From a virus (Duplodnaviria > Heunggongvirae > Uroviricota > Caudoviricetes), in IMG/VR virus record IMGVR_UViG_2531839524_000004: a stretch of 64,000 nucleotides of DNA; one strand, given 5' to 3'. A program made the translations under genes and the position numbers. Positions 2,796 through 41,181 of this stretch are shown here, one piece after another. The notes beneath the pieces were generated by a model. That model was not told where the DNA came from and did not search any database. It was given only the letters and a program-made list of their open reading frames with translations. Position 1 is the first letter of the stretch; each line of letters starts with the position of its first letter.

Positions 2796-3527
2796 ATGTT
2801 AGCGCCTACTTATTTCAAGGATGAAACAATGGGAATTAAAGCTGATATTCAGAGCTTATCTCCCTCTGCACTCATTGAGTTGTTCGTACTGGATATGTCG
2901 AACACAACTTCAGGGGGGAAGCTATTCTTCCACGCCGGAACAAACGAACTGATGCAACCGGTCGTCTGGCAAGGAGTGACATACGAGCCGTGGCCAATAA
3001 AAGCATCAGGCTTTGACAAAACGGGCCAGGGAACGTTGCCACGTCCAAAAATTCAGGTATCGAACTTTGCCGGAACCGTCTCTGCGGAAGTTCAGGCAAA
3101 CGACGATCTTGTTGGCTGCCGCATTATTCGCAAGATGACGCTGGCTCGCTTCCTCGATGCCGTTAATTTTAAAGACGGTAATCCAACAGCAGATCCAAAC
3201 CAACATTTCCCGGATGAAATGTGGTTTATCGAACAGAAAACGCTCGAAACTCATCAGGTTGTCGAGTTTGAGTTGTCCAGTGTGTTCGATTTGATGGGGG
3301 TGCAACTGCCGTATCGTCAGATCATTAAAAACACCTGCCCGTGGAAATACCGAGGGCCAGAATGCGGCTATACCGGTCCATATTTCGACAAAAATAACCA
3401 GCAGACGTCTATGTCTGGTGCTGATTACTGCACAAAACGTTATGACGCCTGTAATGCGCGTCGGAATTATTTTGCCAACGGAGTGATCCATTTTGGCGGG
3501 TTTATTGGAGCTACGCGATATGGGTAA
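2796..3527 (+). CDS. Minor tail protein (lambda gpL-like)
   Basis: 243 aa; C-terminal Cys cluster 'CPWKYRGPECGY...C...C' as in gpL Fe-S proteins; a likelier start is the internal ATG at 2829 preceded by AAGGA. Confidence 0.7.
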   Translation: MLAPTYFKDETMGIKADIQSLSPSALIELFVLDMSNTTSGGKLFFHAGTNELMQPVVWQGVTYEPWPIKASGFDKTGQGTLPRPKIQVSNFAGTVSAEVQANDDLVGCRIIRKMTLARFLDAVNFKDGNPTADPNQHFPDEMWFIEQKTLETHQVVEFELSSVFDLMGVQLPYRQIIKNTCPWKYRGPECGYTGPYFDKNNQQTSMSGADYCTKRYDACNARRNYFANGVIHFGGFIGATRYG

Positions 3528-4317
3528 TAAAGCAATCCCTGAGCTTGGCTCTGATGTTATGCAGCAAATCTATCTCTGCGCCATAAATCGCTACCCTAAT
3601 GAAGCGTGTGGCTTTCTGGTGAGAACTAATGGCGACAAATATCGCTTTATGGAAGCGCGAAATGTTTCGGAGAACCCGCAGAACACTTTTGTAATGCACG
3701 TTGACGACATTATAGCGGCAGAGGATGCAGGTGACGTAATCGCAATCTGGCATTCACATACTGATGAATCAGCAGAAGCATCTGATGCCGATCGTGCAGG
3801 CTGTGAAGCGACGGAAGTTCCGTGGATGATTCTGGCTATTCGCAAGAATGTTGAGGGAGATGCCCCTTTCCATTTTAGCGAGATGAATGTGATCACACCT
3901 GATGGTTTCGAAATGCCATACCTGGGTAGACCGTATGTATTTGGCGTATTCGATTGCTGGATGTTGTGTCGGGACTATTTGAAGCGTGAGTTTAACGTCG
4001 AGCTTAACCCGAACGCACACCTGCATATTCCATCGTGGTACACCGGCGATAACGACATTCTCGACCAGAACTACCGAAACGAAGGGTTGGTACGGCTTGC
4101 GCCTGGAACAGAGCCTCAACGTGGGGACGTCTTCTTTATTCAATACGGGAAAATGCCAGATCACTGCGCGGTTTATATCGGCGATGGAATGATTCTTCAT
4201 CACCAGATCGACCGTCTTAGTTGTCGTGCTTATTACGGCGGAATGTATCAGAAACATACGACGCATCACTTGCGTCACAGAGACTTGCTCAAGGGAGATG
4301 AGACGTGTCTGAGTTAG
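3520..4317 (+). CDS. Tail tip assembly protein (lambda gpK-like; JAMM/MPN plus NlpC/P60 domains)
   Basis: 'AIWHSHTDESAEASDADR' is an HxH...D JAMM-like motif; C-terminal 'FDCWMLCRDY' and 'DHCAVYIGDGMILHH' fit an NlpC/P60 Cys/His pair. ORF track starts at 3493; start trimmed to the ATG at 3520. Confidence 0.7.
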   Translation: MGNKAIPELGSDVMQQIYLCAINRYPNEACGFLVRTNGDKYRFMEARNVSENPQNTFVMHVDDIIAAEDAGDVIAIWHSHTDESAEASDADRAGCEATEVPWMILAIRKNVEGDAPFHFSEMNVITPDGFEMPYLGRPYVFGVFDCWMLCRDYLKREFNVELNPNAHLHIPSWYTGDNDILDQNYRNEGLVRLAPGTEPQRGDVFFIQYGKMPDHCAVYIGDGMILHHQIDRLSCRAYYGGMYQKHTTHHLRHRDLLKGDETCLS

Positions 4318-4898
4318 TTCATGTGCAGCTTGGCGGACCTATGGCTAAACATTTTGGTCGCCACTGGCATCTAAAGGTGCGCAATACAAAACAGGCTCTG
4401 GATTTAATTGAAGCCAACAAGCCTGGGTTTAAAGCATGGATGAAGCGCAATATCAAAACCTATGACAGTTACCACATCCAGATCACCAATAAACAGGGCC
4501 ACAAGTGGTCTGTTGACGAAAGTGAATATCAGATGATGGGGCAGTCTGACAACATTGCCAAAATCCGCATTACACCTGTTCCGCGAGGAAGCGGTGGATC
4601 TGCTTTTGGGTGGTTTCAGACGGTAGTAGGGGCCGCTTTGTTGGTTGTATCGGCGGTAGTGATGCCTGCTTTAGCACCTCTCGGTTTGTCACTGATGATG
4701 GGCGGCATATCACAAATCATATCGCCGCAAGCCACTAACGAAAGTGTGAGACAGGCAGATAACTCGAACTCTTATTATTTCGACGGCCCTCAAAATACAG
4801 AAAACCAGGGCAACCCAGTACAACTTATCTATGGCGAGGAAATTCTGGTTGGCTCACAGGTTGTGAGTTCTTCAATCACGATTGACCAGCTAATGTAA
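4305..4898 (+). CDS. Tail assembly protein (lambda gpI-like)
   Basis: 197 aa with a hydrophobic C-terminal segment, between gpK-like and gpJ-like genes; GTG start overlapping the upstream gene. Confidence 0.55.
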   Translation: MSELVHVQLGGPMAKHFGRHWHLKVRNTKQALDLIEANKPGFKAWMKRNIKTYDSYHIQITNKQGHKWSVDESEYQMMGQSDNIAKIRITPVPRGSGGSAFGWFQTVVGAALLVVSAVVMPALAPLGLSLMMGGISQIISPQATNESVRQADNSNSYYFDGPQNTENQGNPVQLIYGEEILVGSQVVSSSITIDQLM

Positions 4899-4909
4899 AC
4901 AAGGATTTT

Positions 4910-7900
4910 TTGAACATGGAACAGTTCAAGAAGAAAAAGCTACCGCTGTTTATTGCCGGTGCGGGTGGTAAAAAAAGCAGCAAAAGCTCCAGTCGTACAC
5001 CGGTTGAAGCCGACGATACCGTAAATTCTCGTGCAATGGCCGCTATCCTCGATCTTCTTGGGGAAGGGGTAATTGGCGGCTTAGTAAATGGCGCAAGATC
5101 TATTTTTATCGACGATCTGCCGATTGTAAATGAAGACGGTTCCTCCAACTTCAGCGGAATCACATGGGATTTTCGCGACGGTTCACAAGACCAGACTCCA
5201 ATGTCTGGCTTTGATTTCGTTGAAACGCCTAAATCCGTCAATATCCAGTTAAAAAAAACACATTATGTAACGGTTTCAATCGATAACGATGAAGCTGATC
5301 GGGTTCGTGTCATCATGAAGTTTCCTTCTTTGCGAAGCATAGATAAAAAAACTGGTGACACGAACGGTACGACTGTTGAGTACAAGTTCCAGATAGCAAA
5401 TGGCGACTCAACATTTGTAGATGTGGTCGCGGAAGGGGAAAAAAGCGTTGGCATTAAGCTAACAGCAAAGAAGACCGGCGTTTATTACCGTAGCTATGAG
5501 CTGAAGCTGCCTAAGCCTGGACGCGCATACAAGGTTCGTGTAGTCCGTATTACCGATGATAACAGTAGCCAGTATCTCTATAACGATACATGGGTGGATT
5601 CAATCGGGGAAATTGTCGATACACCGATGAACTATCCAAACTCTGTTTTGGTTGGATTGAAGGTAAACTCTGAGCAATTCGGCAGCACCATGCCATCTCG
5701 CTCTTATCTGGTGCGTGGCCTAAAAATTCGAGTACCTTCAAACTATAACGAGTCCAGTAACACTTACGCTGGGGTATGGGATGGCACTTTTAAGCTGTTG
5801 TCTTCTTCGAACCCCGCGTGGATTCTCTTTGATTTGCTGACCAATGCTCGATATGGCCTTGGTCAGTATGTGTCGGAATCTATGATTGACCTTGGCCAGT
5901 TGTACCAGATTGGTCGATATTGTGACGAAGAGGTCGATGATGGCTTTGGTGGCAAAGAGAAACGCTTTGCAATCAATACGCAGATCACCAGTCGACAGGA
6001 CGCATACCGGCTAATTCAGGATATTGCTGGAGCATTCCGCGGCATGGTGTTTTGGGCTGGTGGGATGGTTAACATCATGCAGGATAGCCCATCAGATCCG
6101 GTAATGATGTTTACCAACTCTAACGTCAAAGATGGATTGTTTACCTATAAAGGTTCTGCGCGTAAAGATCGCCCATCCGTTGCGCTCGTAACCTACAACA
6201 ACAAGGAGGACGGTTATAAGCAAAACATCGAGTACGTTGAAGATCAGGACGCAATGCGCCGTTATGGTGAGCGTAAGACAGAAGTCGTAGCATTTGGCTG
6301 TACAAGCCGAGGGCAGGCTCACCGAGTTGGTTTATGGCTTTTATATACCGCCAGAATGGAGTCGGATGTAATTACATTTACTGCCGGCTTAGACGCGTCA
6401 TTTCTGATGCCTGGTGAAACCGTTCTGATTCAGAACAAATATCGCGCAGGCAAACGTAACTCAGGTCGAATTGTGGCGTTTACCAAAAACAGCGTCACAC
6501 TCGATGCGCCTGTGTCGTTAGCCAAAGGCGGCTGCTTTATTCGAATACTGAATCAGGAAGGCAAAATCGTTGAACGCGATGTTCTTGAAACTGGCGAAAA
6601 TATAACAAAAGTTACGTTTTCAAAAGCCCTGTCTTCGGCTGAAACGCCTGTTTTGAACGGCGTCTGGACTATTACAGAACCAGACCTCGAACCTATGCGC
6701 GTTCGCATCGTTAACATCGCGCAGGGGGAAACGCCGGGTAGCTTTGACATCACCGCTGTTGAGAACAATCCGTCTAAATATGAGGCGATCGACAATGGTG
6801 CAACGCTTATCCCGCAAAATACGACGGTATTGGACCCGACTTACTCCAAGCCGTCTAATTTGCAAATCACCGAAGGGACTTATCTCTCAAGCCCTGGCAA
6901 CCTGTCAGTAAAACTGACTGCAACATGGGAAGGGAAATCTCCAGAGTATTGGATCAGTTGGCGACGTTCTGATGAAAACAATGTATCGAACTGGCAATCG
7001 GCGCGTGTAACCGAAGAGCAATACGAAATCGTTAATGTTGCGGAGAATGGACGCTACGACTTCCAGCTGTATGCGGTTTCATTCAACGGTAAAAAAACAG
7101 AGATTATCAGTACCGTTTATCAGGTGCTGGGCACAATGACACCGCCAGATGCCCCAACGTCATTAACGGCCGTTGGAGACTATCGTAATGTGATACTGAA
7201 TTGGGTTAATCCAGATTCGGTAGACCTTGATCACATTAATGTTTACGCGTCCCAGACCAATAATCTGGATACGGCGAAACTGATCGCAGAGTCTGCAAGC
7301 ACCACCTTTACACATGCTGGTCTTGGGGATAGCGAAACGTGGTATTACTGGGTTCGAGCATCGAACAAGCGAGGTATGTTAAGTCCTCCGAACTCAAACT
7401 TGGGTACAGAGGCGACAACTCGCGATGTACTGTCGTTCCTGACTGGCAAAATTACATCTTCCGAGCTTGGTCAGGCTCTGCTTGAGGACATCAACAGCAA
7501 AGCCTCTCAAGAAGCCGTTGACGAGTTAAATGAGCATATCAACCAGAGCGTCGAATCTTTGGAGGGGGCGGTAAACGACGTTAAGGAAGATATAGCTGAA
7601 TTAGATAAGCAGTTCAGCGATAACCTCGCGGATTTTGAAATAAAATTCAACGAGCGTAGCGATGCTTTGGAGAACGCACAAACCGAGCTTAAAGGGGAGG
7701 TTTCGGCAACGATCGACAAGGTCAATGAAGCGTTTGAAAAAATTGATGCTACTGATGCTGCAATTGTTGAAATCGAAAATACAGTATCTGAACACGATAA
7801 AGCTCTCGCTAATACAGTCGAGGCAATAAAGGCTGCAAGAGATGAAGCGGCGGCTCTTATTGCTAAGGAAAGCGAGGCTCGTGTTGAAGGCGATGCTGCA

Positions 7901-28488: not shown

Positions 28489-29751
28489 TTACTTTGCATA
28501 GTCGCCCAATTTTAATATTTCGCGCTTATATTCATTAACCATGCTACTGGATTCAGTATAAATTCGATTTAAAAGATTATCGTTATCTTTATTTTCATTT
28601 ATCTTAATTAGTGCTAATTTATATTCATAGTCATCAAATGCCACAATTAAATGGTGGCCTGGGATTATATCTTCGTCACTCTTAAAGTATATATCTTCAA
28701 GTATGTAATCTAGTTGATTAGATTTTCTTTTCTCGATGTAATCTTCAGCCATAGCTATTACATCATTCCTGTCATTTAACCTGTTTTTTTCGGAAGGCAC
28801 ATCTTCGTAATGTTGCACGATTGAACAACCAATAAGGCGTGGGATGTAAACGTCAAAATGAGTAACTCTATCATTCGCGGTTTTAAGTAGTTCCTCAAAG
28901 TAGTTTCTTACATGTAAAGGCAACTTCTCAAAGTAATCATTAATTATAGGAGAACAAGGAGTTTTATAATTCATAAGAACCGACGGTACGAGCTTTGGGT
29001 GTCGAAACATCCAGTCCCTTTTAACGTCCGATGGAACATAATAACTTTTAATGATATTATCAAAATAATTTATCATTCGAGATTTGAATATTTTGTTGAA
29101 TCTAAGGTTTATGAATGTATCCAGATAAGGCATATTTGAATAAGCATCATCAAAAAATATTTCATCATTGAAAAAATCATATTTATTCAATAAACAACAC
29201 AGTTTTTCCGAATTAATATGTTCACAATAATCGATTTTTAATCCAAAGATAGCAATGATCAACTTCATCTGAGGTGGGATTTTAAAAATTAATTGTGACA
29301 CATACGCTCTTTTTTCCTTGAGACATTCCCCATCAATATAAAATGAACCATCCACATACTCAAATATATTAATAATATGCTTCACATACTGTATTACCTC
29401 ATGCTGTCTTACCAATGGATAATATAGTCTATGTAACTCATCGCTGTTTAAATTAATTTTGTGTTTATCGATAATTTGTTTTGCAAGAAGACATAACTCA
29501 TCATGTTGATTTAATAAGGAATCAAACCATTGTTTAAATGCACTCTTTCGCATTTCGAACAATGATTCAGTTGTTAATTGAAGGGCTGAAAAAGCTGCTT
29601 TTGCACTTTTTCTCGCTTCGTAGGCATTCCATGCTGTTGCTATAAAAGCAAATGCTGTAGCCAATGTTCCAACAGTTTGACCATTTAAAACAACCCAATC
29701 CCAAAAAATGACGGTGAGCAGTAGTATAATAATGAAAATTAAAAAAGGCAT
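28489..29751 (-). CDS. Membrane-anchored hypothetical protein encoded in an AT-rich island
   Basis: 420 aa; two N-terminal TM segments then a large soluble domain with no motif I recognise; locus is visibly much more AT-rich than surrounding phage genes. Confidence 0.6.
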   Translation of the reverse strand: MPFLIFIIILLLTVIFWDWVVLNGQTVGTLATAFAFIATAWNAYEARKSAKAAFSALQLTTESLFEMRKSAFKQWFDSLLNQHDELCLLAKQIIDKHKINLNSDELHRLYYPLVRQHEVIQYVKHIINIFEYVDGSFYIDGECLKEKRAYVSQLIFKIPPQMKLIIAIFGLKIDYCEHINSEKLCCLLNKYDFFNDEIFFDDAYSNMPYLDTFINLRFNKIFKSRMINYFDNIIKSYYVPSDVKRDWMFRHPKLVPSVLMNYKTPCSPIINDYFEKLPLHVRNYFEELLKTANDRVTHFDVYIPRLIGCSIVQHYEDVPSEKNRLNDRNDVIAMAEDYIEKRKSNQLDYILEDIYFKSDEDIIPGHHLIVAFDDYEYKLALIKINENKDNDNLLNRIYTESSSMVNEYKREILKLGDYAK

Positions 29752-29925
29752 GTATGTATTTCACTCTACTAACTATAAAATATTAGGCTAATGTTAACCA
29801 AACAATGCCTTAATTAATAGATTGATCGAGGCTTTAATAGCTTTATAATGCAGACTGTAAAGATAAGTATGCACATACCTATCTTCTTTGTAAGTAAAGT
29901 TGCATATCAATTCTATGAGGTAACA

Positions 29926-30171
29926 ATGACGATCACTATCTACGGACGAGATAACTGCTCATACTGCAAACGTGCGGTCGAGCTGGCGAAGCAACTAAAG
30001 GGACATGGCTACGGTGATTATGAGTACATCGACATCACCACTGCCGGTATCGACAAGGAAAAACTAAGTGAAATTGTTGGTAAACCGGTAGAGACTATCC
30101 CCCAAGTGCTGATCGATGGCCAACCGATTGGCGGATACACAGAACTGGCTGCATACGTCAGCACCCTCTGA
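29926..30171 (+). CDS. Glutaredoxin / NrdH-like redoxin
   Basis: 'MTITIYGRDNCSYCKRAVELA' carries the CxxC active-site motif at the expected position; about 80 aa from the internal ATG of the 29848 ORF. Confidence 0.7.
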   Translation: MTITIYGRDNCSYCKRAVELAKQLKGHGYGDYEYIDITTAGIDKEKLSEIVGKPVETIPQVLIDGQPIGGYTELAAYVSTL

Positions 30172-30381: not shown

Positions 30382-31485
30382 ATGAAAAATAGCTTTGACA
30401 GAGCACGCGCTGCGGAGAACACCTCAAAAGAGGCGATTGAGTATCTCGAAAGAGCATCTCAAATGCAGGCCGTTATGATCTCGCAGGTTAGCAATGATAT
30501 GAGATTCTCGGACGCATTCATGTTATTTACTCGCTTATCTCTGCTGATAACAAGACGTCGGCCGGAGATCGCTGTTCATTGTATTTTGATACATGTTTTG
30601 CCGCACATTGCTGATGTAAAAGTAAGTGACATTAATAGGTTCATGGTGAACCAACTGGTCAACCCCCTAATACTGGATGGCAAAATTGTTATGGGCCGCC
30701 GCGTTTTCTCTCTGATGAAGCAGTTCCTTAGCTGGTGTGCCTTCCAGGGGATGATCGACGTGTCACCGTTAAACGATATGTCACTAAACAAAGTTGCCGG
30801 TGGCGCAAAGCCCACGCCTCGCGAGCGGAAGCTAACCGACGCAGAGGTATGGGTGTTCTGGAATATATGGGACTACTTCAATGTGTGCGCTGGTACAAAA
30901 TGGGCGGCCAGGCTATGTCTTGTATCCGCAAGACGACCTGACGAAGTACTGCGGGCTAAAAAAAGTGAGTTCAACCTCCAGCGTGGGGTTTGGAATCAAG
31001 GCAAGAGAAACAAATCAGCCCGTGAGCATTCTCTGCCTTTAAGCACATTAATGCGCACATGCATTGAAGAGTTATTCGAATATGGTAAAGGCAGCCAGTG
31101 GCTTGTGCCTTCGAATAAAAAAATCGGGAAAGATCTTCCGATGTCTAAAGTGGCAATAGCCCAGGCATTACGCCGTATCCTGGAACGACCAGAACTGATG
31201 GAGCTTGAGCCATTTACACCACGAGATTTGCGTCGTACTGCGCGTAGTTACTTCCCAGCATTAGGCATAAGCCAGGAGGTATCACGTAAAATCATGAACC
31301 ACAGTCTTGAGGGGATAGATCGGGTCTACGACCGGCACGATTATATGGACGAGATGCGAGACGCCTTAGAAAGTTTCTCGACGTACATCGCATCAATCGT
31401 AGAGCAACCGGATTTAGACGAAATTGACCACAAATTCAAGGGAGATCGTCTATCGACAGAGCTTATTCGTGTAAATTTTTCATAG
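30382..31485 (+). CDS. Tyrosine recombinase / integrase-family protein
   Basis: C-terminal 'TPRDLRRTARSYF...IMNHSLEGIDRVYDRHDY' resembles the HxxR...H...Y catalytic region of tyrosine recombinases, with Arg where the first His is usual; 'SARRPDEVL' is a box I-like Arg. Confidence 0.65.
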   Translation: MKNSFDRARAAENTSKEAIEYLERASQMQAVMISQVSNDMRFSDAFMLFTRLSLLITRRRPEIAVHCILIHVLPHIADVKVSDINRFMVNQLVNPLILDGKIVMGRRVFSLMKQFLSWCAFQGMIDVSPLNDMSLNKVAGGAKPTPRERKLTDAEVWVFWNIWDYFNVCAGTKWAARLCLVSARRPDEVLRAKKSEFNLQRGVWNQGKRNKSAREHSLPLSTLMRTCIEELFEYGKGSQWLVPSNKKIGKDLPMSKVAIAQALRRILERPELMELEPFTPRDLRRTARSYFPALGISQEVSRKIMNHSLEGIDRVYDRHDYMDEMRDALESFSTYIASIVEQPDLDEIDHKFKGDRLSTELIRVNFS

Positions 31486-39000: not shown

Positions 39001-39568
39001 CTCACGTCCGTTTGAAATGAACCCCAAACGATCGGCTGAAATTAACGTGCTCATGACACGGATGGCGGCTGAAATGGGTTTAGGTGATGAACTAATCCGC
39101 CCCAGCATTGGTATTAAGCCGAAAATCATGATCATTCTGGACAATGCGAACGGCAATGATGCTCGAACCGGTTACTTTATGGAGAACGGATACGACGATT
39201 TTAAGGCCAAGTTGCTGACGGCCGGAGATTTGCGTATGGGCGATCTCTATGTCACAGGCGTTTGCAAGAAGGTTAAAGACAAAGAAAAAGACTACACCAA
39301 AGACGAGATCGGCCAGTTCACCGACTTTATGCGTGAAGAGATCAATCTGGTGCGTCCGACCTATGTTCTGACGTGTGGTAGTCGGGCGACGTCGCTCTTC
39401 AACAACAAGAGCAAACCATCCGACCTGGTTGGACGCAAAGAGTATCTGCCAGAGCTGGATGTGACCGTTTTCTACGGCTTTAACCCGAATATTTTGTACT
39501 TTCGTCCAGAGGAAGGCGAGAAGCTGGAAGCAATTCTGGCAGAGGTAGCGGAGACTATTAGCAAATGA
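36050..39568 (+). CDS. dnaE: DNA polymerase III alpha-like replicative polymerase (DnaE family)
   Basis: 'GPGRGSSAGSLVAWCIGITNVDP...FERFINPER...DLPDADLDF' and 'FNKSHSVAYSLISYQSMWLKTHYPAEF' are hallmark DnaE motifs; N-terminal PHP-like region lacks the usual His residues. Confidence 0.85.
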   Translation: MKALMVRTDFSLGESALKAENAGKIAREAGYTAVISADSMNIASVIPLQRAAGDDMAVICGVKLNIVDDPTYEHRAKLAKESMRCMESLERGRNYSFTALIKNEQGYRDICELMTVANTREQFYFVPRLSLDQLVSTYAKGNIILLTSDIGSVFQRNDFAKIISSLITAGGKDNFYSVVYPHPTPFYDQINVRAMKVASALKIEPVAFYPAYYESIDDADIKDIAHMVTNNIKIAQPHRLRIPHQRDNAVNGRRHLLEALKAFSVRMDVPVTAAMASTTQDTIIEACTWRWHELPPALPKMADDEPATLMKLAVAGLRKRLTTKEFGYIPPASENRVYVERLKYEMDTLTRLGFCGYFLMVRDLMNHSRETGIPVGPGRGSSAGSLVAWCIGITNVDPIRHGLLFERFINPERLDLPDADLDFSQARRHEVIEYLNERYGEDYVAGIPNFTYLGAASALRDTARIYGVESADMAVSKELKNVEDDSLPLEELREQLASLDKYATKYPDAFNAACKLQSLMRGFGRHAAGMIVAGVPLTERTPVERRGDARCIAFDKRYCEAMGLIKLDVLGLATLDLLDSAKRYIKENTGEDINLDAISLEDRKVLDGFAAGYTQGVFQLESGPMRKLLKDLGSGIEPMSFKTVVATTALFRPGPIQSGMLDDYVSVAKGFMTPESLHPVLDELTAETNGVILYQEQTMNATRLLAGFTMAEADGVRKAIGKKDMEKMKSMGEKFIVQAQAGWIDVELEDGTTQRIHRAEHFKCEDGTLKTVEEALEHGAKLPINAVRVTASHPGLSEMKAKEIWTAFEKNGAYQFNKSHSVAYSLISYQSMWLKTHYPAEFFAAALTILGEDKHQGLVKDALTYGIRVLPPDVNVSSNRIEIRTLEDGSQVLFAPFSAVKGCSENGCQAIMRAREKVGGKFESLAQFEEAVEKRACNSRVRESLQKVGAFASIEPGSLPATDPERLRDQAELMGNLVIDAVKASRPFEMNPKRSAEINVLMTRMAAEMGLGDELIRPSIGIKPKIMIILDNANGNDARTGYFMENGYDDFKAKLLTAGDLRMGDLYVTGVCKKVKDKEKDYTKDEIGQFTDFMREEINLVRPTYVLTCGSRATSLFNNKSKPSDLVGRKEYLPELDVTVFYGFNPNILYFRPEEGEKLEAILAEVAETISK

Positions 39569-39702
39569 ACAAAGAGAACACCATAAAGGTGGTCAAAGAA
39601 TTTATGGAAGTGAACAGATTGGCGATGTGAGACAGTATCGGCTGAAGCGTCAAACCAGAGTAACGCGATCCAACATTTTTAGTAAGAAAGTCGCTTAATT
39701 GT

Positions 39703-39726
39703 AAGGCTCGCTAAGTAGCGAGCCTT
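39703..39726. terminator. Stable hairpin (terminator-like) downstream of the polymerase gene
   Basis: 'AAGGCTCGCT-AAGT-AGCGAGCCTT', 10-bp perfect stem, no strong T-run. Confidence 0.45.
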
Positions 39727-39746
39727 AATAGCAACAATAAGAGGAC

Positions 39747-40595
39747 TCAATATTTAACAAATATTTCATTAAGCCTAGGGTTAACTTGGTCATATTTATC
39801 TATGTCGTCTTTTAAAACTGAATGACATTTGACACCAATTTCAAATGCTATCAATATCGAATTTATATATTGATTATAGCATTCAATCAAAGATTTAATA
39901 TCAGATGATAGTTGTATCAACCGTGGATTGACTCTAAGAGCACTAATAACCTTATCATACTTGTTAAGCAACCCATTCAATTCATTAGCAAAATTATATG
40001 GATAACCATTTTGGTATGTATTTTCATCATCAGCAGGACCTAAATAATCACCAATGCACTTAAGTTTATTCTTAATGAATACAGCATCTTCAGTGGCATC
40101 TATATCATTTTTCGTTAAGAAAAGTTCTATCCACTTGTTCTTGTCCGACTCTTTCAAAAGGTTATTTTCTTTATCAAAAGTAATACAATAGCTATCACTT
40201 TTTTTCTCGTTGGAAATACTAATCATTTCCGCCAACTCGTCTTTACCTAAATGTTTCCAAAATATTACAGGGAGACCGTTGTCGTTTAGAAAAACGCGAA
40301 CAATGACAATCGGATCATTAATACTTTGCCAATAAATTAAATTTTTAATAGGTACAGAAACTCTTAGTGAATCATCGATTTTTTTACTTGTTGTTTTAAC
40401 TTGAACTCCAATAAACATACCTGTTGAATGACAGTTGTCATCATAAATCTCAACCTGAGCATCCAACCCCATGTCAATATCAAGAATTCGGCAAGGCCAT
40501 ACAAATTTATTTGAAATCCAATATGCGAAATAAAACTCACCAGCATTTCCGTTAGCAACTCTTTCGATATATCTCATGCCCTGATCGTTTGCCAC
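39747..40595 (-). CDS. Hypothetical protein with possible PD-(D/E)xK nuclease-like N-terminal domain, in an AT-rich island
   Basis: 282 aa; N-terminal 'GNAGEFYFAYWIS...ILDIDMGLDAQVEIYDD...FIGVQVKTT' gives a G-x-D...Q-x-K pattern reminiscent of restriction-endonuclease-like folds (inference); strongly AT-rich. Confidence 0.5.
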   Translation of the reverse strand: MANDQGMRYIERVANGNAGEFYFAYWISNKFVWPCRILDIDMGLDAQVEIYDDNCHSTGMFIGVQVKTTSKKIDDSLRVSVPIKNLIYWQSINDPIVIVRVFLNDNGLPVIFWKHLGKDELAEMISISNEKKSDSYCITFDKENNLLKESDKNKWIELFLTKNDIDATEDAVFIKNKLKCIGDYLGPADDENTYQNGYPYNFANELNGLLNKYDKVISALRVNPRLIQLSSDIKSLIECYNQYINSILIAFEIGVKCHSVLKDDIDKYDQVNPRLNEIFVKY

Positions 40596-40749
40596 TTCCG
40601 TATCCCTTGTTAAGTTATCACTGGAGCACTTTAGAGAACACTTTGATAATTAACAAGTTGCAGCCTAGTGGACAGACAAAGGCTATTGTTTGATGTAACA
40701 CCAGATAGTCATATAATTGATATATAGAAATAAGTAACAGGATACATTT

Positions 40750-41181
40750 ATGAACGCCGATATTTACGAGAAAATAATGTCTGATCTCGAGTTTGACCGA
40801 GACAATCTGGAAGACGTCTGGCGTAGACAACCTCGCCTGTTGATGGAGTATGGTTCAAAGCTCGCCCATGCAGAAAGAAGTGTCGCAGAGGCAAAACTTA
40901 ACCTTGAAGCTGTTGAAGCAAAGCTATACGACACAGAGCGTAAGAACTTGAGTATGAACGGCATTAAGTTCAACGAATCTGTACTAGACGCTAAGGTTAA
41001 AACAAACCCACAGTATCTATCTAAACGGCAGAAGTTGGATGAAGCACGGCACATCGCAGACATATACAAACATGCTGTCGCCGCCTTTTCGCATCGCCGA
41101 GACATGATCGTTCAGGCGTCGAAGATGGCCATTGTTGAATTAGAGCGATTAGGCTCTGAACGCTTTATCACTCCCCGTTGA
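40750..41181 (+). CDS. Hypothetical protein (predicted coiled coil)
   Basis: 143-aa ORF divergent from the AT-rich minus-strand gene. Confidence 0.45.
   Translation: MNADIYEKIMSDLEFDRDNLEDVWRRQPRLLMEYGSKLAHAERSVAEAKLNLEAVEAKLYDTERKNLSMNGIKFNESVLDAKVKTNPQYLSKRQKLDEARHIADIYKHAVAAFSHRRDMIVQASKMAIVELERLGSERFITPR

What the first reader, a model, noticed from the sequence alone, without database searches (positions are those of the whole stretch)
39747..40595. Second AT-rich minus-strand cargo gene, with a possible restriction-endonuclease-like N-terminal domain
A 282-aa ORF on the opposite strand, wedged between the polymerase gene and the SSB/FEN/RecA block, strongly AT-rich and preceded by a stable hairpin (39703-39726). 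The N-terminus ('GNAGEFYFAYWIS...ILDIDMGLDAQVEIYDD...FIGVQVKTT') shows a G-x-D ... Q-x-K spacing reminiscent of PD-(D/E)xK-type nuclease folds seen in defence proteins; the C-terminal 150 aa are unassigned. Candidate single-gene defence or exclusion determinant.
Basis: inference. Interest (0 to 1): 0.65.

Follow-up and report, generated by a model that had tools for sequence, protein, structure and literature searches.

The report
Stand-alone DREN-type nuclease cargo gene
This is a real accessory gene on an SSU5-type phage-plasmid that joins a known indiscriminate "suicide" nuclease domain (DUF4365/DREN) to a fast-evolving helical domain of unknown role; it is most likely a one-gene anti-phage or anti-plasmid defence, and a published machine-learning screen has already predicted this but nobody has tested it.

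Summary
The ORF (39747-40595, minus strand, 282 aa) is real and under purifying selection. It is 32% GC in a 46% GC window.

- **N-terminal domain:** residues 18-156 are a DUF4365/DREN PD-(D/E)xK nuclease (Pfam E 1e-13; Foldseek E 1.7e-6 to SPARDA DREN). All four experimentally essential residues are present (D41, D45, Q65, K67).
- **C-terminal domain:** residues 157-282 form a three-helix bundle seen only in this family. It has no APAZ or crr6 domain, and no Argonaute, antitoxin or other conserved neighbour.
- **Backbone and slot:** the backbone is an SSU5/pHCM2-type phage-plasmid. The dnaE/p143 slot is a cargo hotspot. It is empty in PhiR41_1, holds candidate defence system PDC-M06 in SSU5, and holds diverged alleles of this family elsewhere.
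- **Allelic replacement:** in pUTAK-6-1 the allele is 40% identical while the flanking proteins are 98-99.7% identical.
- **Prior prediction:** RefSeq calls the product WP_106372450.1. That accession stands in the DefensePredictor Table S10 row of the paralogue WP_001095351.1, where I read it as the cluster representative. The row's log-odds is 12.5; neither protein was tested.

Best reading: a single-gene, oligomerisation-gated abortive or exclusion nuclease. This is a new variant of a known kind and is unproven. The hairpin is real but lies 3' of the gene.

The parts
39747..40595 (-). Complete CDS: 282 aa, GTG start, TGA stop included. This is the DUF4365-family cargo gene (RefSeq product WP_106372450.1 in pG749_2).
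40128..40544 (-). N-terminal DUF4365/DREN PD-(D/E)xK nuclease domain (residues 18-156).
   Evidence: Pfam PF14280 at 51.9 bits against a cutoff of 24.3, E 1.1e-13. PADLOC Aga_REase, N-terminal part only. Foldseek to SPARDA DREN 9jt2_B, E 1.7e-6, probability 1.00. PDB profile hit to DREN-APAZ.
40395..40475 (-). Catalytic core D41-x-G-x-D45 ... Q65-x-K67, also containing the invariant Q47 and E49.
   Evidence: Invariant or near-invariant in 27 homologues. Aligns to XauDREN E37/D41/Q62/K64, NbaDREN D41/Q60/K62 and EAT16 D42/D46/Q66/K68, all required for activity.
39750..40127 (-). C-terminal family-specific three-helix bundle (residues 157-282). It is the presumed regulatory, oligomerisation or sensor domain.
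40596..40710 (-). Cargo-borne 5' region of the gene, with an SD-like AAGGGA at 40603-40608 and a presumed own promoter. Backbone homology resumes at 40711.
   Evidence: No strong sigma-70 consensus was found on the minus strand here.
39728..40710 (.). The whole variable cargo segment in the dnaE/p143 slot of the SSU5-type backbone.
   Evidence: Boundaries come from blastn against PhiR41_1 (empty site), pHCM2 and SSU5. No flanking direct or inverted repeats.
39702..39727 (.). Perfect 12-bp hairpin between the convergent dnaE-side transcript and the cargo gene. It is a backbone element marking the left cargo boundary.
   Evidence: Not a canonical intrinsic terminator.

Best explanation
The gene encodes a stand-alone, two-domain effector carried as accessory cargo by an SSU5/pHCM2-type phage-plasmid.

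Shown:
- The N-terminal domain is a DUF4365/DREN-type, metal-dependent PD-(D/E)xK nuclease with an intact catalytic set (D41, D45, Q65, K67).
- The C-terminal domain is a three-helix bundle seen only in this family, and it evolves about twice as fast as the nuclease core.
- The gene works without a conserved partner.
- It sits in a hotspot where diverged alleles of the same family, unrelated candidate defence genes, or nothing at all are found in otherwise near-identical backbones.

Inferred:
- The protein is expressed from its own promoter in the plasmid-prophage state.
- As with the DREN domain in SPARDA, which is monomeric and inactive alone and active only when forced into a tetramer, the nuclease is held inactive until the helical domain senses an invader-derived trigger.
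- The helical domain then drives oligomerisation, which switches on indiscriminate DNA cleavage.
- The outcome is abortive infection, or exclusion of competing phages and plasmids, which protects the population that carries the phage-plasmid.
For: - **Nuclease identity:** Pfam DUF4365 E 1.1e-13, PADLOC REase part of a pAgo-associated protein, PDB profile hit to DREN-APAZ, and Foldseek E 1.7e-6 at probability 1.00 to DREN in SPARDA filaments.
- **Catalytic residues:** invariant in the family and in all slot alleles. Their equivalents are essential in NbaSPARDA, XauSPARDA and the toxin EAT16.
- **Gating precedent:** isolated DREN is monomeric and inactive, and activity needs tetramerisation.
- **Toxicity precedent:** a two-domain DUF4365 protein, EAT16, kills E. 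coli on expression, and its D/D/K mutants lose toxicity.
- **Single-gene defence precedent:** Divona, DUF4365 plus another C-terminal domain, gives phage resistance.
- **Single gene here:** there are no shared neighbours in Serratia, Providencia (inovirus prophage), Proteus, the E. coli CP4-type island or the phage-plasmids.
- **Hotspot:** the slot is empty in PhiR41_1. In SSU5 it holds PDC-M06A/B, E 1e-21 and 6e-31.
- **Allelic replacement:** in pUTAK-6-1 the flanks are 99.0, 97.9 and 99.7% identical but the gene only 40.5%, with the C domain at 28%.
- **Selection:** dN/dS is 0.27-0.31.
- **Foreign origin:** GC is 0.29-0.38 in every host.
- **Independent prediction:** DefensePredictor Table S10 lists the paralogue WP_001095351.1 at log-odds 12.5, against a strict cutoff of 4. 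Its row carries the accession WP_106372450.1, which I read as the cluster representative and which is the product annotated for this very gene.
Against: - There is no experimental phenotype for any member of this family.
- PADLOC v2 has no model for it beyond the shared nuclease domain. A DefenseFinder v1.3.0 survey of 1,227 SSU5-type contigs does not report it.
- Another E. coli DUF4365 protein (DUF4365+DUF1817, '43CR') was tested and was not defensive against that study's phage panel.
- The N-terminal domain of the full-length model has only moderate confidence, pLDDT about 50-70.
- No convincing promoter was found, and an AT-rich gene may be H-NS-silenced.
- The Citrobacter copy has lost its last 12 codons.
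Confidence: 0.55

Rival explanations
1. It is a phage-serving nuclease of the replication/recombination module. It would act either as an Hjc-like junction-resolving enzyme for recombination-dependent replication, or as a host-DNA-degrading nuclease used during lytic growth.
For: It lies between dnaE and the UvsY-like/gp32-like/FEN/RecA-like genes. DUF4365 has the topology of the archaeal Hjc/Hje resolvases.
Against: - It is on the opposite strand to the whole module, AT-rich and foreign in composition.
- It is absent from SSU5, pHCM2, PhiR41_1 and all 50,697 deposited phage records.
- Homologues sit in non-phage chromosomal sites and in a filamentous prophage, which has no need for a resolvase.
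- Extreme allelic divergence between 99%-identical flanks is not expected of a housekeeping replication enzyme.
Confidence: 0.12
2. It is a secreted or injected antibacterial toxin: cargo of a contractile injection system or T6SS, like the DUF4365 toxin EAT16.
For: EAT16 has the same kind of architecture and the same catalytic motif, and is toxic in E. coli. The Proteus copy lies about 500 bp from an orphan Hcp gene.
Against: - EAT16 is not in this sequence family. Its primer-derived peptides and its C-terminus differ, and no Photorhabdus hit was found.
- No eCIS or T6SS genes, delivery domains (PAAR, Rhs, DUF4157) or adjacent immunity gene appear in any of the ten contexts.
- The phage-plasmid and inovirus carriers encode no injection machinery.
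Confidence: 0.08
3. It is an addiction (post-segregational killing) toxin, or a purely selfish toxic gene, that stabilises the plasmid-prophage rather than defending against invaders.
For: It sits on a low-copy extrachromosomal prophage. The nuclease domain is potentially lethal.
Against: There is no antitoxin-sized conserved ORF in the 983-bp cargo segment or next to any homologue. Chromosomal singleton copies are stably present in 82 E. coli genomes. Most SSU5-type elements do without it.
Confidence: 0.08
4. It is a decaying or silenced passenger with no current function, or a non-catalytic DNA-binding protein.
For: AT-rich DNA is likely bound by H-NS (inference). No strong promoter was found. 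The Citrobacter copy is truncated.
Against: Both domains are under purifying selection, dN/dS about 0.3. The catalytic residues are strictly conserved across alleles that are only 33-50% identical. The ORF is intact in hundreds of contigs.
Confidence: 0.07

Closest known systems
DREN (DUF4365) effector domain of DREN-APAZ in SPARDA short-Argonaute systems (NbaSPARDA, XauSPARDA; PDB 9jt2, 9qcc)
   Same: Same Pfam family and fold, and the same catalytic residues (D41/D45/Q65/K67 correspond to Xau E37/D41/Q62/K64). It probably shares the same logic: a lethal, non-specific nuclease that must be switched on by forced oligomerisation.
   Different: There is no APAZ domain, no Argonaute partner and no guide RNA. 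The DREN domain is instead fused to a 126-aa three-helix bundle and acts as a single gene. Sequence identity to DREN is only about 20%.
Divona (single-gene anti-phage integron cassette of Vibrio cholerae; DUF4365 + crr6)
   Same: A single polypeptide with an N-terminal DUF4365 and a different C-terminal domain, carried on mobile DNA. Divona has experimentally shown anti-phage activity.
   Different: None of the 27 family members hits crr6/PF08847. There is no integron cassette structure. No Vibrio homologues were retrieved.
EAT16 (Photorhabdus eCIS-associated toxin, WP_082303719.1)
   Same: A two-domain protein with an N-terminal DUF4365 and the motif at almost the same residue numbers (D42/D46/Q66/K68). 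It is toxic in E. coli in a motif-dependent way.
   Different: A different sequence family and C-terminus, and it is associated with an injection system. This family has no such association.
DefensePredictor cluster WP_106372450.1 / WP_001095351.1 (predicted, uncharacterised E. coli defence protein; Science 2026, Table S10)
   Same: It is this family. WP_106372450.1 is the annotated product of the gene in pG749_2. WP_001095351.1 is the 51%-identical chromosomal paralogue. The listed row has log-odds 12.5.
   Different: This is a computational prediction only. The protein was not among the 118 transcription units tested, and no mechanism or context analysis was given.
PDC-M06 (PADLOC two-gene phage-defence candidate) in phage SSU5
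   Same: It occupies the same dnaE/p143 slot in the same antisense orientation, which shows the slot behaves as a defence-type cargo hotspot.
   Different: The proteins are unrelated, and it is a two-gene system.

Membership tests
Pfam DUF4365 (PF14280) / DREN nuclease domain | HMM match above the curated gathering score | tested here: met
   51.9 bits against a cutoff of 24.3, E 1.1e-13, residues 18-156 covering profile positions 3-136 of 139. All 27 aligned family sequences (the window protein plus 26 homologues) match.
Pfam DUF4365 (PF14280) / DREN nuclease domain | Conserved D-x-G-x-D ... Q-x-K catalytic motif | tested here: met
   D41, G43, D45, Q65 and K67 are present. G43/D45/Q65/K67 are invariant and D41 is conserved in at least 90% of the family. 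They align to the catalytic residues of Nba and Xau DREN.
Pfam DUF4365 (PF14280) / DREN nuclease domain | PD-(D/E)xK fold superposable on solved DREN structures | tested here: met
   Foldseek top 13 PDB hits are all SPARDA DREN-APAZ chains, E 1.7e-6 to 2.9e-4, probability 1.00, about 160 aligned columns. Caveat: the N-domain pLDDT is about 50-70.
Pfam DUF4365 (PF14280) / DREN nuclease domain | Divalent-metal-dependent nuclease activity | not testable with these tools
   Needs biochemistry.
SPARDA (short pAgo + DREN-APAZ) | APAZ domain fused C-terminally to DREN | tested here: not met
   The PADLOC hit covers only profile positions 25-143 of 429. The C-terminus is a 126-aa helical bundle with no APAZ-like match.
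SPARDA (short pAgo + DREN-APAZ) | Adjacent short Argonaute (MID-PIWI) gene | tested here: not met
   The neighbours are dnaE and a 143-aa gene. No PIWI gene occurs in any homologue's neighbourhood.
Divona | C-terminal crr6 (PF08847) domain after DUF4365 | tested here: not met
   No member hits PF08847 even at E <= 1.
Divona | Direct sequence homology to the V. cholerae Divona protein | not tested
   The sequence is not retrievable from the held text or supplement. No Vibrio proteins appear among the 31 homologues.
eCIS-associated toxin EAT16 family | Sequence family membership, and linkage to a contractile injection system locus | tested here: not met
   Primer-derived EAT16 peptides (MTQGFP......HDFGIDAQVDVIL......FRTDDA) differ from this family beyond the catalytic core. 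No eCIS genes occur in any context.
Type II toxin-antitoxin / addiction module | Adjacent co-oriented small antitoxin gene conserved with the toxin | tested here: not met
   The cargo segment holds one gene. Homology among loci is confined to the ORF. The upstream neighbours are unrelated.
DefensePredictor predicted-defence cluster (representative WP_106372450.1) | Identity with the listed accession | tested here: met
   WP_106372450.1 is the product annotated on the 99.8%-identical gene in pG749_2. It appears in the WP_001095351.1 row of Table S10, in what I read as the cluster-representative field; the column header was not checked.
Anti-phage defence system (any) | Reduced phage plating or plasmid uptake when expressed | not testable with these tools
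   No published test of this family was found.

The most novel reading that the evidence does not exclude
The family is a minimal, guide-free counterpart of SPARDA. In a single polypeptide, a rapidly diversifying three-helix bundle directly recognises an invader protein or DNA structure. It then assembles DREN domains into the active tetramer or filament. The deeply diverged alleles swapped at the fixed dnaE/p143 slot of SSU5-type phage-plasmids would then encode different recognition specificities. That would make the slot an 'immunity-allele' locus governing competition between phage-plasmids, phages and plasmids in Enterobacteriaceae, including the pHCM2-like elements of clinical Salmonella and Shigella.
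Probability: 0.3. Interest if true: 0.62.

Novelty: new variant of a known kind. Interest (0 to 1): 0.42.

Why it matters
DREN nucleases are so far understood only as Argonaute-controlled effectors, and are being developed for diagnostics. A stand-alone version with its own small sensor or assembly domain would show how the same lethal nuclease can be gated without a guide RNA. It would also offer a very compact (282-aa) trigger-activated DNase.

SSU5/pHCM2-type phage-plasmids are common in clinical E. coli, Shigella sonnei, Salmonella Typhi and Klebsiella. A swappable defence allele at a fixed slot would help explain their host range, their mutual exclusion and their interactions with therapeutic phages.

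The work also gives context and a mechanism hypothesis for one of about 1,000 untested machine-predicted E. coli defence clusters.

Tried and rejected
- **C-terminal domain, exhaustive phmmer search** (1.84 billion representatives). It found only one family member, one fragment and three multi-stretch hits that I take to be low-complexity or repeat proteins. Sensitivity for a 126-aa query at this database size is limited to about >35% identity, so this is weak negative evidence.
- **Profile search with the C-terminal alignment**. It returned nothing, not even the family, so it is uninformative. My guess is that the candidate list was swamped by low-complexity words.
The BFVD viral fold search gave no hit at E <= 0.001.
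- **PHROGs and NCBIfam:** no family. **Rfam** on both strands of 39300-41000: nothing.
- **Hidden two-gene system:** rejected, because the upstream neighbours in E. coli and Providencia are unrelated.
- **Transposon or integron cassette:** rejected, because there are no flanking repeats.
- **Positive selection between the closest pair:** rejected, dN/dS is about 0.3. My first impression of excess non-synonymous change came from comparing with the wrong protein cluster.
- **DS-33, DS-37 or HEC-06 as names for this family** (reported in Salmonella SSU5-type elements). DS-33 is a two-gene GNAT system and DS-37 a 463-aa protein. HEC-06 was not resolved.
- **Species-representative genome scan:** only 3 loci, because its peptide patterns were very strict. 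It therefore understates the distribution seen.

Full report
**1. The observation**

The ORF exists exactly as described: 39747..40595, minus strand, 282 aa, GTG start. RefSeq annotates the same CDS as a 'DUF4365 domain-containing protein', WP_106372450.1, on E. coli plasmid pG749_2. That plasmid is 99.8% identical to the window over 39570-40760.

Two things support the GTG start. Homologues have their ATG at the aligned position. An AAGGGA motif lies 7 nt upstream (sequence).

The gene is 31.9% GC in a 45.6% GC window, with flanks of 48-52%. It is one of only two such AT-rich islands in the window.

It is a constrained coding gene:
- 31 homologues were found (E <= 0.001), nearly all of them full length.
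- dN/dS against the Citrobacter copy is 0.27 for the N-terminal domain and 0.31 for the C-terminal domain.

The hairpin is real: perfect 12-bp arms at 39702-39727, dG -23.1 kcal/mol, z = -4.2. It lies 3' of the gene, between two convergent genes. It belongs to the backbone, because homology to pHCM2, which lacks the gene, ends exactly at 39727. It has no U-tract on either strand.

**2. The setting**

The window is an SSU5/pHCM2-type phage-plasmid. The gene lies antisense between dnaE and a plus-strand block. That block holds a 143-aa gene (annotated UvsY-like in phage Cyrano), a gp32-like SSB, a FEN and a RecA-like gene.

Comparison with relatives defines a 983-bp cargo segment, 39728-40710. 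The slot varies between elements:

| Element | Content of the slot |
|---|---|
| Phage PhiR41_1 | empty, 126-nt spacer |
| pHCM2 | an unrelated 196-aa gene |
| Phage SSU5 | two genes matching both components of PADLOC candidate defence system PDC-M06 (E 6e-31 and 1e-21) |

No direct or inverted repeats flank the segment, and no RNA family matches.

**3. The protein**

*N-terminal domain.* Residues 18-156 match Pfam DUF4365 at 51.9 bits, against a cutoff of 24.3. PADLOC matches only the REase part of an Argonaute-associated protein.

An AlphaFold2 model built on 27 family sequences has pLDDT 77. Its N-terminal ~160 residues superpose on the DREN nuclease domain of SPARDA complexes. The 13 best PDB hits are all DREN-APAZ chains, E 1.7e-6 to 2.9e-4, probability 1.00. 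A family profile also finds DREN-APAZ by sequence.

The literature identifies the DREN catalytic residues:
- D41/Q60/K62 in NbaSPARDA (PMC12205087).
- E37/D41/Q62/K64 in XauSPARDA (bioRxiv 10.1101/2025.04.08.647717).
- The conserved DxGxD...QxK motif is required for toxicity of the DUF4365 toxin EAT16 (PMC11297309).

These map to D41, D45, Q65 and K67 here. All are invariant or nearly so in the family and are kept in every slot allele.

*C-terminal domain.* Residues 157-282, modelled alone, give pLDDT 87 and pTM 0.79. The fold is three long helices plus a short terminal helix.
- No Pfam domain hits it in any of the 27 members.
- An exhaustive sequence search finds no credible relatives outside the family.

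The nuclease core is twice as conserved as the bundle: 70% against 37% mean pairwise identity.

**4. Distribution and genetics**

The family is confined to Enterobacterales. The gene is AT-rich in every host, even in 56% GC Serratia. It approaches host GC only in Proteus and Providencia. This suggests a Morganellaceae origin followed by horizontal spread.

It always occurs as a lone gene, with no shared neighbour:

| Host | Context |
|---|---|
| Serratia | chromosomal singleton |
| Providencia | inside a filamentous (inovirus-like) prophage |
| Proteus | beside an orphan Hcp gene |
| E. coli | CP4-type island, 82 of 5,426 complete genomes, always chromosomal |

The upstream neighbours in E. 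coli and Providencia are unrelated.

About 30 plasmids carry a full-length copy. Almost all are non-mobilisable replicons of 105-111 kb, in E. coli, Salmonella, Klebsiella, Enterobacter and Citrobacter. None of 50,697 deposited phage records has it.

The window's own allele is in 3 of 5,426 complete E. coli genomes and on 279 contigs in the large collection.

Alleles that are 87, 42, 40 and 33% identical sit in exactly this slot and in this orientation.

The most telling comparison is with E. coli pUTAK-6-1:

| Protein | Identity to the window's |
|---|---|
| DnaE | 99.0% |
| 143-aa protein | 97.9% |
| gp32-like protein | 99.7% |
| DUF4365 protein, whole | 40.5% |
| DUF4365 protein, N domain | 51% |
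| DUF4365 protein, C domain | 28% |

This is allelic replacement at a fixed hotspot, a pattern typical of defence and counter-defence loci.

**5. How it most likely works**

*Shown.*
- It is an intact DREN-type nuclease fused to a private helical bundle.
- It is encoded as a single gene.
- It is carried as swappable cargo.

*Known from SPARDA.* Isolated DREN is monomeric and inactive. It becomes an indiscriminate DNase only when filament assembly forces it into a D2 tetramer.

*Known from other DUF4365 proteins.* A two-domain DUF4365 protein is lethal in E. coli (EAT16). Another protects Vibrio from phage as a single gene (Divona).

*Inferred.* The C-terminal bundle replaces APAZ and Argonaute as the gate. 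It would keep the nuclease monomeric or occluded until it binds an invader-derived trigger. It would then promote oligomerisation and non-specific DNA cleavage. The result would be abortive infection, or exclusion of competing phages and plasmids, to the benefit of the resident phage-plasmid.

I put 0.55 on this overall reading. The nuclease-domain assignment alone is about 0.9.

*Rivals.*
- A phage-serving resolvase or host-DNA nuclease (0.12).
- An injected toxin (0.08).
- An addiction toxin (0.08).
- A silent or non-catalytic passenger (0.07).

Each is weakened by the gene's accessory, antisense and partner-less nature, or by the conservation data. Details are given under the rival explanations.

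**6. Comparison with what is known**

- **Not a SPARDA.** There is no APAZ domain and no Argonaute gene. Both features were tested and not met.
- **Not Divona as described.** There is no crr6 domain.
- **Not in EAT16's family**.
- **Not DS-33 or DS-37**.
- **Not reported** by a DefenseFinder survey of SSU5-type elements.

It is, however, already on a published list. DefensePredictor (PMC13092281) Table S10 lists WP_001095351.1 as a 'Predicted novel defense gene' with mean log-odds 12.5, against a strict cutoff of 4. I showed that this protein is the 51%-identical E. coli chromosomal paralogue.

That row also carries the accession WP_106372450.1, in what I read as the cluster-representative field. 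WP_106372450.1 is the product of this very gene. The cluster was not among the 118 units tested. The only DUF4365 protein that was tested, a DUF1817 fusion, was not defensive.

**7. Verdict**

The gene is a new architectural variant of a known kind of effector, the DREN/DUF4365 nuclease. It was independently predicted to be defensive, but it is uncharacterised.

The added value here is threefold:
- the mapping of the catalytic residues;
- the partner-less, multi-context distribution;
- the demonstration that the SSU5 dnaE/p143 slot exchanges deeply diverged alleles of this family between nearly identical backbones.

Interest is moderate, 0.42. The gene is a good and cheap experimental target, but its existence would not surprise a specialist.

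Noticed in passing
window 39586-39727: This stretch is a remnant of the small DUF7740 gene (147 aa in pHCM2). That gene normally overlaps the dnaE stop in pHCM2, pA_CitB, SSU5 and the Salmonella Hartford element. The window has lost about 296 bp of it, with roughly 15 bp of overlap at the junction. The Citrobacter element carries both an intact DUF7740 gene and the DUF4365 gene, so the deletion appears to post-date acquisition of the cargo.
   Followed up: partly
window 28489-29751 (-), with 29848-30171 (+) and 30382-31485 (+): This is the only other strongly AT-rich island (31.7% GC over 29001-30000). It holds a 420-aa minus-strand ORF with a hydrophobic N-terminus, next to a glutaredoxin-like 107-aa ORF and an integrase-like 367-aa ORF.
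   Followed up: no
L004 (phage SSU5) 4538-5405: The two antisense genes in the same slot of SSU5, one of them annotated 'AlpA-like regulator', match both components of PADLOC's untested candidate defence system PDC-M06 (A: E 1.2e-21; B: E 5.7e-31).
   Followed up: partly
L008-L010 (Providencia stuartii) 6001-6828: A family member is carried as cargo inside an integrated filamentous (inovirus-like) prophage. It lies between the Rep/ssDNA-binding/coat genes and the Zot/secretin genes.
   Followed up: no
L011, L018, L024 (clade-B alleles); L023 (Klebsiella allele): The diverged slot alleles (307-332 aa) carry an extra N-terminal extension of 25-40 residues, rich in lysine, proline and alanine, ahead of the nuclease domain. 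The window's allele lacks it. It might bind DNA or target the nucleoid.
   Followed up: no
L003 (Citrobacter pA_CitB) 3199-4011: The closest non-E. coli copy has a premature stop that removes the last 12 residues, including the terminal helix of the bundle.
   Followed up: no
L011 (Salmonella Hartford) vs L018 (Buttiauxella gaviniae): The two DUF4365 alleles are almost identical (dS about 0.01), and both loci are syntenic SSU5-type elements. This implies very recent transfer of the phage-plasmid between genera.
   Followed up: partly
L012-L014 (Proteus mirabilis) 4450-6804: The Proteus copy sits about 500 bp from, and divergent to, an orphan Hcp gene with a downstream 186-aa ORF. In one strain there is instead a 249-aa Hcp-family ORF (possibly a fusion). 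This is the only hint of a link to a secretion system.
   Followed up: no
window 39747-40595 vs the public collections: The family is present on about 30 plasmid records of phage-plasmid size but in none of 50,697 phage records. Elements of this type that carry the gene have so far been deposited only as plasmids.
   Followed up: yes
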